A DNA stretch of 5,639 nucleotides from a virus (Duplodnaviria > Heunggongvirae > Uroviricota > Caudoviricetes), in the IMG/VR virus record IMGVR_UViG_2563366968_000011; one strand, 5' to 3'. Shown piece by piece: positions 3,912 to 4,046 of this stretch. Every line of letters starts with the position of its first letter. Position 1 is the first letter of the stretch. The notes beneath the pieces were generated by a model that did not search any database, had not been told where the DNA came from, and worked only from the letters and a program-made list of their open reading frames with translations. Made by a program: the position numbers and the translations under genes.

Positions 3912-4046
3912 ATGAATAAAGCATTTGAACGATGGGTCCACCAGCGTTACGGCAATCGCTATGATCTGACGCGAGATGTTGACGGTTTCTACTGTCGTGA
4001 AGTTGTGAAGCGAATGTTTGAAGTGTGGTGCCACTGCCGTGGATGA
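3912..4046 (+). CDS. small hypothetical protein (44 aa) with Cys/His cluster, absent from the ORF track
   Basis: ATG at 3912 is preceded by AGGAAG at 3902..3907 and starts 3 nt after the upstream TAA. Translation read by hand: MNKAFERWVHQRYGNRYDLTRDVDGFYCREVVKRMFEVWCHCRG, ending at TGA 4044..4046. It fills an otherwise unexplained 150-nt gap in a tightly packed operon. Confidence 0.4.
   Translation: MNKAFERWVHQRYGNRYDLTRDVDGFYCREVVKRMFEVWCHCRG

What the first reader, a model, noticed from the sequence alone, without database searches (positions are those of the whole stretch)
3912..4046. Unannotated 44-aa Cys/His-containing ORF upstream of xis
This small ORF, missing from the supplied ORF track, has its own SD (AGGAAG) and starts 3 nt after the upstream stop. 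Its C-terminal half carries C-x11-C-H-C, which could be a small metal-binding knuckle. In lambda the equivalent position next to xis holds a small accessory protein (Ea8.5), as I recall. The three ORFs 3666..3908, 3912..4046 and 4065..4319 are in the same reading frame, separated by single stop codons.
Basis: seen in the sequence. Interest (0 to 1): 0.35.

Follow-up and report, generated by a model that had tools for sequence, protein, structure and literature searches.

The report
Conserved small prophage gene, function unknown
The 44-codon ORF is a real, protein-coding phage gene that public databases already list as a hypothetical protein (PHROG 3871); it is not a zinc knuckle, it is not tied to excision, and its function is still unknown.

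Summary
The ORF is a genuine gene. Across 35 distinct DNA versions from E. coli, Salmonella, Klebsiella, Citrobacter, Pantoea, Serratia and Xenorhabdus phages and prophages, the frame is always intact. Variation concentrates at third codon positions (entropy 0.99 against 0.39 and 0.33) and pN/pS is 0.22. It is not new. It matches phrog_3871 (E 2e-32), equals BP-4795 ORF3 and Fels-1 STM0895.1n, and RefSeq annotates it in the source genome as WP_001030157.1, hypothetical protein. The zinc-knuckle idea fails: only 65 of 144 family clusters keep all four ligands and some have no Cys or His, whereas F5, Y17, L19, Y27, M35 and W39 are 97-99% conserved. AlphaFold predicts a confident helix, beta-hairpin, helix mini-protein with no match among solved structures. 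It usually sits as the last early-left-operon gene before xis. It precedes several unrelated excisionase types, also occurs in nin regions and in virulent phages without an integrase, and is deleted in Stx2a phages that carry the same xis-int. The same-frame arrangement is not conserved. It is most likely a dispensable early accessory protein that works by binding a partner.

The parts
3912..4046 (+). 44-aa protein-coding gene, member of phrog_3871 (same as BP-4795 ORF3, Fels-1 STM0895.1n and RefSeq WP_001030157.1). Predicted helix 2-13, beta-hairpin loop 14-28, helix 30-43.
   Evidence: phrog_3871 E 1.9e-32. Frame intact in 35 distinct DNA versions. Codon-position entropy 0.385/0.332/0.988, pN/pS 0.218, median dN/dS 0.10. 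AF2 pLDDT 91. PGAP CDS in the source genome.
3900..3905 (+). Shine-Dalgarno AGGAAG, 6 nt before the ATG, lying inside the last codons of the upstream gene (translational coupling).
   Evidence: Read directly. Purine-rich GGAG/GGAGG-like motifs occur at the same distance in most homologous loci, although the upstream genes differ. Start/stop gaps of 3, 0, -1, -4 and -8 nt to the upstream gene.
3666..3908 (+). Upstream neighbour: 80-aa DUF4222 protein (phrog_285). It is the usual partner in the E. coli lineage only.
   Evidence: Pfam PF13973 E 2.7e-15. Upstream neighbours differ in other genera.
4065..4319 (+). Downstream neighbour: DUF1233-type excisionase (PGAP name xisR).
   Evidence: Pfam PF06806 E 8.7e-29, phrog_539; PGAP annotation.
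4353..5639 (+). Tyrosine integrase (Arm-DNA-bind_2 plus Phage_integrase). The prophage end abuts mlrA in the source genome.
4041..4064 (+). Junction between the accessory-gene block and the xis-int module. A 1-nt indel relative to the 48-aa form creates the early TGA and the shared frame with xis.
   Evidence: Alignment of the window against Fels-1, PhiR49_2 and BP-4795. The 44-aa form is seen only with the MQTIIYQ-type xis leader at an 18-nt gap.

Best explanation
Window 3912..4046 encodes a genuine 44-aa phage protein of the PHROG 3871 family. The family has no assigned function and is found in temperate phages, and a few virulent ones, of Enterobacterales.

Shown:
- The ORF is under purifying selection at the amino-acid level.
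- It has its own ribosome-binding site and is tightly packed against the upstream gene.
- No promoter-like site lies nearby, so it is read as the last accessory gene of the early-left (pL, 'exo-xis') operon, just before xis and int.
- AlphaFold predicts a compact helix, beta-hairpin, helix mini-domain. Its conserved residues are a hydrophobic core (F5, Y17, L19, Y27, V32, M35, W39) plus a charged hairpin and helix-2 face (R16, D18, R21, D22, R29, E30, K33, R34).

Inferred:
- It is too small for catalysis and has no conserved metal site, so it most likely acts stoichiometrically. It would bind, through the conserved hairpin and helix-2 surface, a partner common to Enterobacterales: a host protein or a conserved phage protein.
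- It would do so during the delayed-early phase of infection or induction, and so tune early development as other exo-xis and nin accessory proteins do.
- It is dispensable and is not a dedicated excision factor.
For: Coding:
- All 35 distinct DNA versions from 105 loci keep an intact 44-50 codon frame with an ATG or GTG start.
- Third-position entropy is 0.988 against 0.385 and 0.332. Pooled pN/pS is 0.218 and median dN/dS is 0.10.
- Four of the five other frames give ratios above 1.4. The fifth, the wobble-aligned antisense frame, has 99 stops. Every other frame contains stops in some homologue.
- Synonymous codon choice is free along the whole ORF (0.78, 0.78, 0.68), so no cis element is embedded.
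- The RNA fold is no better than shuffled sequence (z +0.40) and there is no credible Rfam match: one sub-threshold hit, outside the ORF.

Family:
- phrog_3871 E 1.9e-32.
- 171 clusters at 90% identity and 30 representatives at 50%, all from Enterobacterales and all unnamed.

Fold:
- pLDDT 91. No PDB fold match. No sequence match to solved structures below E 0.5.
- BFVD matches are uncharacterised phage proteins with TM 0.7-0.9.
- There is a weak link to phrog_343 (12 of 27 members, best E 3e-7), which K-12 YfdT also hits weakly (E 0.007).

Operon position:
- Ea22-like, DUF551 and DUF4222 genes lie upstream and xis-int downstream.
- No sigma-70-like promoter in 3400-4500.
- Exo-xis genes are early pL transcripts, and the set next to xis varies between phages (PMC8614690).

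Not excision-specific:
- The gene lies upstream of DUF1233, lambda-type Exc, HTH_17 and AlpA-like excisionases.
- It also lies before a LexA-like gene, in nin regions beside NinB and NinG, and between tail genes of virulent Swiduovirus phages.

Dispensable:
- Stx2a phages with 98%-identical xis-int have lost it by deletion.
Against: - No experiment, named homologue, solved structure or defence/anti-defence model gives a function. PADLOC found nothing and Pfam and NCBIfam have no match. The binding mechanism and the partner are inference from size, fold and genomic position.
- About 60% of divergent loci place the gene directly before an excisionase, and one lineage fuses it in frame to a DUF1233 Xis (L107). 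That keeps a link to excision open.
- Expression was not measured here.
Confidence: 0.6

Rival explanations
1. The protein is an accessory factor of site-specific recombination. It would bind or stabilise the excisionase (or Int, or a host bending protein) and help set the direction or timing of excision.
For: It is the gene immediately upstream of an excisionase in the window and in about 12 of 20 nucleotide-divergent loci. One lineage (Logan DRR526068, L107/P0117) encodes it fused in frame to a DUF1233 Xis with no stop between them.
Against: - The downstream excisionases belong to at least three unrelated families (DUF1233, PF07825 Exc, HTH_17/AlpA-like), so a specific protein-protein fit to all of them is unlikely.
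- The most divergent members sit in nin regions (NinB, NinG) or in virulent Swiduovirus phages with no int or xis.
- Stx2a phages with the same xis-int (98% identity) have deleted it.
- The fusion is seen in a single sample (two contigs on record). AF2 of the fusion was uninformative (pLDDT 58, pTM 0.28).
Confidence: 0.15
2. The protein is a small nucleic-acid-binding regulator. Its basic hairpin and helix-2 face would contact DNA or RNA to modulate early phage transcription.
For: Net charge is about +3, with conserved R16, R21, R29, K33 and R34 on one region of a confident model. Other exo-xis proteins have been proposed to act on transcription (PMC8614690).
Against: There is no fold or sequence similarity to any known DNA- or RNA-binding domain in the PDB or Pfam. 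The conserved basic residues alternate with conserved acidic ones (D18, D22, E30, E37), which fits salt bridges or a protein interface better than a nucleic-acid surface (inference).
Confidence: 0.12
3. The protein is a Cys/His metal-binding knuckle. C28, C40, H41 and C42 would chelate zinc, possibly across a dimer.
For: The window protein has 3 Cys and 2 His in 44 residues. Each Cys position is kept in 76-85% of clusters, which is more than a random surface position would be.
Against: - Only 65 of 144 clusters keep all four ligands. 3 clusters have no Cys and 13 have one. Klebsiella members P0153 and P0159 have neither Cys nor His.
- The replacements are non-ligands: C40 to R, H41 to Y/E/A, C28 to A/S, C42 to A/L.
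- The model places 40-42 consecutively on one helix and C28 more than 15 A away along it (geometric inference).
- There is no CxxC or CxxH spacing.
Confidence: 0.05
4. The ORF is a chance open frame or a conserved non-coding element, not a gene.
For: ORF length alone is not significant: about 40 ORFs of at least 44 aa occur in the window, and antisense ORFs of 90 and 49 aa overlap this one.
Against: The codon-position pattern, pN/pS of 0.22, intact frames down to 59% amino-acid identity, stops in all other frames, free synonymous variation, no RNA structure signal, and a confident AF2 fold driven by the alignment.
Confidence: 0.01

Closest known systems
PHROG 3871 (BP-4795 ORF3 YP_001449240, Fels-1 STM0895.1n YP_001700536, RefSeq WP_001030157.1)
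   Same: Same family, and for WP_001030157.1 the same sequence. Full-length HMM match, the same 44-48 aa size, and the same position before xis in BP-4795 and Fels-1.
   Different: Nothing of substance. The window copy is the 44-aa form that lacks the C-terminal L-x-V-V tail of the commoner 48-aa form.
phrog_343 and the C-terminal half of K-12 YfdT (CPS-53 prophage)
   Same: Weak but repeated profile similarity over the same ~45-residue stretch: 12 of 27 family members hit phrog_343 (best E 3e-7), YfdT hits it at E 0.007, and hhalign of the family against YfdT gives E 1e-3. All are exo-xis-type accessory proteins of unknown function.
   Different: These proteins are about 100-135 aa, with the module embedded in a longer chain. 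The similarity is too weak to claim membership (hhalign probability 22%).
Lambda Orf55 and Ea8.5 (exo-xis genes next to xis)
   Same: Same genomic niche: small, non-essential, pL-transcribed genes between ea22 and xis.
   Different: No homology (hhalign probability 0.5% and 0.2%). The predicted Orf55 fold is three strands plus one helix. According to PMC8614690, Ea8.5 is the only exo-xis protein with a solved structure. From my own recollection, not checked here, it is a homeodomain/zinc-finger hybrid with a real Cys cluster. In lambda, Orf55 is the immediate neighbour of xis, not Ea8.5.
Small zinc knuckles and zinc ribbons
   Same: Three Cys and one His in the C-terminal half of the window protein.
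   Different: The ligands are not conserved, there is no CxxC/CxxH spacing, and the predicted structure is helical where the ligands lie.
Small early phage proteins that act by binding a host protein, such as T7 Gp2 (named in PMC8614690) or lambda Kil and CIII (from memory)
   Same: Size class, early expression, dispensability, and no catalytic or metal site. This is what the protein most plausibly works like (inference).
   Different: No sequence or fold relationship was detected, and no target is known for this family.

Membership tests
PHROG 3871 | Significant full-length match to the family profile | tested here: met
   E 1.9e-32, residues 1-44 on profile positions 1-44 of 48. All 27 members of alignment A3 match.
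PHROG 3871 | Conserved core F5, E6, G14, R16, Y17, L19, D22, G25, Y27, E30, V32, R34, M35, W39 | tested here: met
   All are present in the window protein. Each is conserved in 94-99% of 144 clusters.
Protein-coding gene (as opposed to a chance ORF) | Frame preserved and substitutions mainly synonymous across homologues | tested here: met
   35 of 35 distinct DNA versions have an intact frame. pN/pS is 0.218; four of the five other frames give ratios above 1.4 and the fifth has 99 stops.
Zinc knuckle / small Cys-His metal site | Four metal ligands conserved across the family | tested here: not met
   The C-C-H-C set is present in 65 of 144 clusters. There are members with no Cys or one Cys, and the substitutions are to R, Y, A, E and L.
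Zinc knuckle / small Cys-His metal site | Ligand spacing and geometry able to form one site (CxxC/CxxH knuckles, or i and i+3/4 on a helix) | tested here: not met
   The spacing is C-x11-C-H-C. AF2 (pLDDT 91) puts residues 30-43 in one helix. The incompatibility itself is a geometric inference.
Zinc knuckle / small Cys-His metal site | Bound metal in the purified protein | not testable with these tools
   This needs ICP-MS or a colorimetric zinc assay.
Lambda Ea8.5 family | Sequence homology to Ea8.5 | tested here: not met
   hhalign probability 0.17%.
Lambda Orf55 family | Sequence homology to Orf55 | tested here: not met
   hhalign probability 0.52%.
Exo-xis region accessory genes (a positional class) | Located in the early-left operon between the recombination/ea22 block and xis, on the same strand, with no promoter of its own | tested here: met
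   An Ea22-like gene lies at 947-1705 and xis at 4065, all on the + strand. No promoter-like site in 3400-4500. The class is defined in PMC8614690.
Recombination directionality accessory factor | Obligate co-occurrence with one excisionase/integrase family | tested here: not met
   Found next to at least three unrelated excisionase families, in nin regions, and in virulent phages without int. Absent from Stx2a phages that carry the same xis-int.
Recombination directionality accessory factor | Effect on excision or integration frequency | not testable with these tools
   This needs a deletion mutant and excision assays.
Known anti-phage defence systems (PADLOC) | Match to a defence-system protein model | tested here: not met
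   No PADLOC family matched at E <= 0.1.

The most novel reading that the evidence does not exclude
The 44-aa protein would be the free-standing form of a widespread phage mini-domain (helix, hairpin, helix) that is also embedded in phrog_343/YfdT-type proteins and seen by fold in many uncharacterised phage proteins. It would work together with the excisionase, for example by binding Xis or a host factor used in excision (Fis, IHF, or the Lon/FtsH proteases) to time prophage excision. The natural in-frame fusion to a DUF1233 Xis would then be a true 'Rosetta stone' for that partnership.
Probability: 0.1. Interest if true: 0.5.

Novelty: already known. Interest (0 to 1): 0.2.

Why it matters
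The practical value is mainly in annotation. The result shows that an ORF track with a length cut-off drops a real, widely carried prophage gene. A near-identical copy (about 90% nucleotide identity or more) is present in 566 of 5,426 complete E. coli genomes (about 10%), and the exact protein is found on more than 1,000 contigs. The family is one of many conserved, early-expressed mini-proteins of the exo-xis and nin regions whose functions are unknown. Its confident fold, narrow host range and clear conserved surface make it an easy target for pull-down or deletion studies, including in Stx1-converting phages, where exo-xis genes are reported to influence lysogeny and induction. Nothing found here suggests a new kind of system.

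Tried and rejected
1. Zinc knuckle: rejected on ligand conservation and predicted geometry.
2. Homology to lambda Ea8.5 or Orf55: none.
3. K-12 YpdJ, the small ORF before torI in the related CPS-53 prophage: unrelated, an AlpA-type excisionase remnant.
4. Programmed readthrough or a functional meaning for the shared frame: the frame relation to xis and to the upstream gene is not conserved, and it arises here from a 1-nt indel.
5. An embedded cis element or structured RNA, considered because the 3' end of the ORF is well conserved and is retained in the Stx2a deletion. Synonymous variation is free, the fold z-score is +0.40, and Rfam gives only a chance snoRNA hit outside the ORF.
6. The antisense ORFs 3802..4074 and 3885..4034: all reverse-strand frames carry stops in homologues.
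7. Docking of the small protein on Xis, tested by AF2 of the natural fusion P0117: pLDDT 58, pTM 0.28, uninformative.
8. Solved-structure relatives by sequence (best E 0.5, ScoE, a chance hit) and by fold (best E 4): none.
9. Defence or anti-defence assignment: no PADLOC hit.
10. A link to the T3SS regulator RgdR through the DUF4222 neighbour. RgdR is only distantly similar to that neighbour and is not followed by a phrog_3871 gene.
11. Literature search by accession and PHROG number: no paper found.

Full report
**1. The observation**

- An ORF runs from the ATG at 3912 to the TGA at 4044-4046 on the + strand. It encodes MNKAFERWVHQRYGNRYDLTRDVDGFYCREVVKRMFEVWCHCRG.
- AGGAAG lies at 3900-3905, 6 nt before the ATG.
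- The upstream ORF (3666..3908) stops at TAA 3906-3908, 3 nt before the ATG.
- C28, C40, H41 and C42 give C-x11-C-H-C.
- The starts at 3666, 3912 and 4065 share one frame.

ORF length means nothing by itself. The window has 68 ORFs of at least 30 aa, and 90-aa and 49-aa antisense ORFs overlap this one. Whether the ORF is real had to be settled by comparison with other genomes.

**2. Source and annotation status**

The window is 100% identical to a prophage of E. coli 19AR1724 (NZ_CP195804.1) whose integrase end lies next to mlrA. PGAP annotates the ORF there as WP_001030157.1, 'hypothetical protein'. It sits between a DUF4222 protein and xisR. Near-identical DNA occurs in 566 of 5,426 complete E. 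coli genomes. In every sampled row the full-length copy is labelled 'hypothetical protein'. The exact protein is on more than 1,000 contigs. It matches phrog_3871 (unknown function) at E 1.9e-32, with no Pfam or NCBIfam family. It corresponds to ORF3 of Stx phage BP-4795 and to STM0895.1n of Salmonella phage Fels-1.

**3. Is it a gene?**

I collected 105 homologous loci from phage records, GTDB genomes and IMG/VR.
- They hold 35 distinct DNA versions of the ORF, down to 59% amino-acid identity (Xenorhabdus).
- Every version has an intact 44-50 codon frame and an ATG or GTG start. Most have a purine-rich ribosome-binding motif, even though the upstream genes differ.
- Column entropy is 0.385, 0.332 and 0.988 for codon positions 1, 2 and 3. 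Pooled pN/pS is 0.218 and median dN/dS is 0.10.
- Four of the other five frames give ratios above 1.4. The fifth, the wobble-aligned antisense frame, has 99 stops. Every other frame contains stops in some homologue.
- Synonymous codon choice is free along the whole ORF (normalised entropy 0.78, 0.78, 0.68), so selection is on the protein and not on an embedded site.
- The RNA fold is no better than shuffled sequence (z +0.40). Rfam gives only one sub-threshold chance hit, outside the ORF.

**4. Is it a metal-binding knuckle?**

No.
- Among close homologues the invariant residues are R16, Y17, D18, L19, D22, Y27, R29, V32 and M35. None of them is a Cys or a His.
- When distant members are added, only F5 and Y27 stay invariant. 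E6, G14, Y17, D22, G25, E30 and M35 are at 90% or more.
- Over 144 clusters, C28 is kept in 76%, C40 in 76%, H41 in 67% and C42 in 85%. The core positions are kept in 94-99%.
- All four ligands co-occur in only 65 clusters. Three clusters have no Cys and 13 have one.
- Klebsiella members P0153 and P0159 have neither Cys nor His.
- The AlphaFold model built from the alignment is confident (pLDDT 91). It has helix 2-13, a short beta-bridged hairpin loop, and helix 30-43. C40, H41 and C42 are thus consecutive on one helix, and C28 lies before its N-terminus. By inference, that geometry cannot form one intramolecular site.

**5. Fold and wider relatives**

- No solved structure matches, by sequence (best E 0.5) or by fold (best E 4).
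- Against predicted viral structures, the best hit is a family member (TM 0.91). Many uncharacterised phage proteins of 47-500 aa contain a similar unit (TM 0.7-0.8).
- An exhaustive profile search finds only 30 representatives at 50% identity. A second profile search finds 171 clusters at 90% identity. All are from Enterobacterales and none has a name.
- Twelve of 27 members also hit phrog_343 (best E 3e-7). The C-terminal half of K-12 YfdT hits the same part of that profile weakly (E 0.007). hhalign of the family against YfdT gives E 1e-3 at 22% probability.
- The protein may therefore be a stand-alone copy of a module found inside larger exo-xis-type proteins. This link is weak.

**6. Genomic context**

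In the window the gene is the last of a + strand run of accessory genes: an HD hydrolase (YfdR-like), an Ea22-like protein, an XF1762-family protein, two DUF551-type proteins and a DUF4222 protein. Xis (DUF1233) and the integrase follow. No promoter-like site lies in 3400-4500. Start-to-stop distances to the upstream gene are 3, 0, -1, -4 or -8 nt across loci, as expected for translational coupling within an operon. [quoted passage not shown] It is transcribed early from pL, and the gene set next to xis varies between phages (PMC8614690).

Across 20 nucleotide-divergent loci, the downstream gene falls into these classes:
- a DUF1233 excisionase in about eight loci
- an AlpA-like small HTH protein in two
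- a lambda-type Exc (PF07825) in one
- a LexA-like protein in two
- a 204-208 aa protein in two loci (L008, L020), at the position of Q in the nin region of L008
- loci beside NinG or NinB in Serratia and Xenorhabdus
- a block between tail genes in two virulent Swiduovirus phages that have no integrase

An HTH_17-type excisionase follows the gene in a further locus (L014) outside this set of 20.

**7. Is it needed by xis-int?**

Stx2a-converting phages share the window's xis-int at 98% identity. Their similarity to the window begins only at position 3999, inside the ORF. In these phages a deletion joins the first ~25 codons of the DUF4222 gene to the last ~50 nt of this ORF, out of frame. The same xis-int module therefore exists without the gene. 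Conversely, one lineage (L107) has the small protein fused in frame to a DUF1233 Xis with no stop, and another protein (P0128) joins the front of DUF4222 to it. The Xis fusion is the only positive hint of a functional link to excision. It comes from a single sample. AF2 of the fusion was uninformative (pLDDT 58).

**8. The shared reading frame**

The frame shared by the three ORFs is not conserved. The gap to xis is 18 nt only in the 44-aa form. It is 8 nt (out of frame) with the 78-aa Xis type, and 7, 9, 1, -11 or -20 nt elsewhere. Alignment with Fels-1 shows that the 44-aa form differs from the usual 48-aa form (tail L-x-V-V) by a 1-nt indel just after codon 44. That indel creates the early TGA and, as a by-product, the shared frame.

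**9. The lambda analogy**

In lambda the order is int, xis, orf55, ea8.5, ea22. The immediate neighbour of xis is orf55, not ea8.5. Neither is homologous to this family. The analogy is positional only.

**10. Most likely mechanism**

Shown: this is a real, translationally coupled, early-operon gene. It encodes a stable mini-domain with a conserved hydrophobic core and a conserved charged hairpin and helix-2 face. It has no conserved metal site, no enzyme-sized fold, and no dependence on a particular excisionase, and it is dispensable in nature.

Inferred: it acts by stoichiometric binding to a partner shared by Enterobacterales hosts or their phages, during the delayed-early phase. This resembles what is proposed for other exo-xis and nin accessory proteins.

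My confidence in the whole statement is about 0.6. Confidence in the coding claim alone is above 0.95. Confidence in the host-partner binding step is about 0.4. The main rival is an excision accessory role (0.15). Then come a nucleic-acid-binding role (0.12), a lineage-specific metal site (0.05) and a chance ORF (0.01).

**11. Novelty and score**

The protein is already in RefSeq, UniRef and PHROGs as a hypothetical protein, and I found no paper that mentions it. The finding is a correct call of a real small gene, with a wrong structural guess and a loose analogy. It is ordinary. Interest is 0.2.

Noticed in passing
window 3666-3908: The upstream 80-aa protein carries the DUF4222 domain. That domain is also found in RgdR (ECs1581, Sakai prophage Sp7), a published activator of the EHEC LEE type III secretion system (PMC10877973). 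The similarity is distant (39% over 31 aa, E 0.013), with RGQ in place of the RGD motif. rgdR itself is followed by a primase gene, not by a phrog_3871 gene.
   Followed up: partly
window 1702-2199: This 165-aa ORF is named 'XF1762 family protein' by PGAP. It has a weak, sub-threshold Pfam match to the Mom DNA-modification family (E 7e-5, 23 bits against a cut-off of 27).
   Followed up: no
window 2631-3599: This is one uninterrupted 322-aa ORF ending in a DUF551 domain. PGAP splits it into a DUF551 'pseudogene' fragment and a 269-aa protein. Its N-terminal module (…AYEIALASLEAEPVAW) recurs in the neighbouring ORF 2201-2650 and in K-12 YfdT, which indicates shuffled modules among these accessory genes.
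   Followed up: no
L007 2413-2554 (Stx2a phage Stx2_EH2201); also E. coli hits H121 and H122: A deletion joins the first ~25 codons of the DUF4222 gene to the last ~50 nt of the 44-aa ORF, out of frame. The product is annotated as a 38-aa hypothetical protein or as a DUF4222 protein. The xis-int module downstream is 98% identical to the window.
   Followed up: yes
L107 2963-3336 (Logan DRR526068): A natural in-frame fusion of a full phrog_3871 domain to a DUF1233 excisionase, with no stop codon between them. The gene caller started it 13 codons too late (P0117).
   Followed up: partly
P0002 (E. coli, 58 aa): A family member with an internal tandem duplication of 14 residues (CREVVKRMFDVWCH twice).
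   Followed up: no
L019 (Chryseobacterium sp. 18061) and phage record OM284015 (Elizabethkingia phage EKP1): Homologues 80-84% identical to the E. coli protein appear in records assigned to Bacteroidota. The Chryseobacterium locus (L019) has a Klebsiella-type AlpA-like neighbour; the context in the Elizabethkingia phage record was not examined. Contamination or a mislabelled host seems likely.
   Followed up: no
protein cluster of the window protein: The 90%-identity cluster that holds the 44-aa protein has an 80-aa DUF4222 protein as its representative, and it mixes both proteins. This is probably a clustering artefact bridged by fused or readthrough gene calls.
   Followed up: partly
L004 and L009 (Citrobacter phage vB_CfrS_K1M, Salmonella phage CF-SP1): These virulent Swiduovirus phages carry a small rightward block of exo-xis-type genes (DUF2591, DUF551, phrog_3871) inserted between leftward tail genes.
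   Followed up: partly
window 3400-4500: Four terminator-like hairpins were found against 0.8 expected from shuffles: 3445-3461 (+), 4390-4406 (+), 4464-4448 (-) and 3853-3841 (-). None flanks the 44-aa ORF.
   Followed up: no
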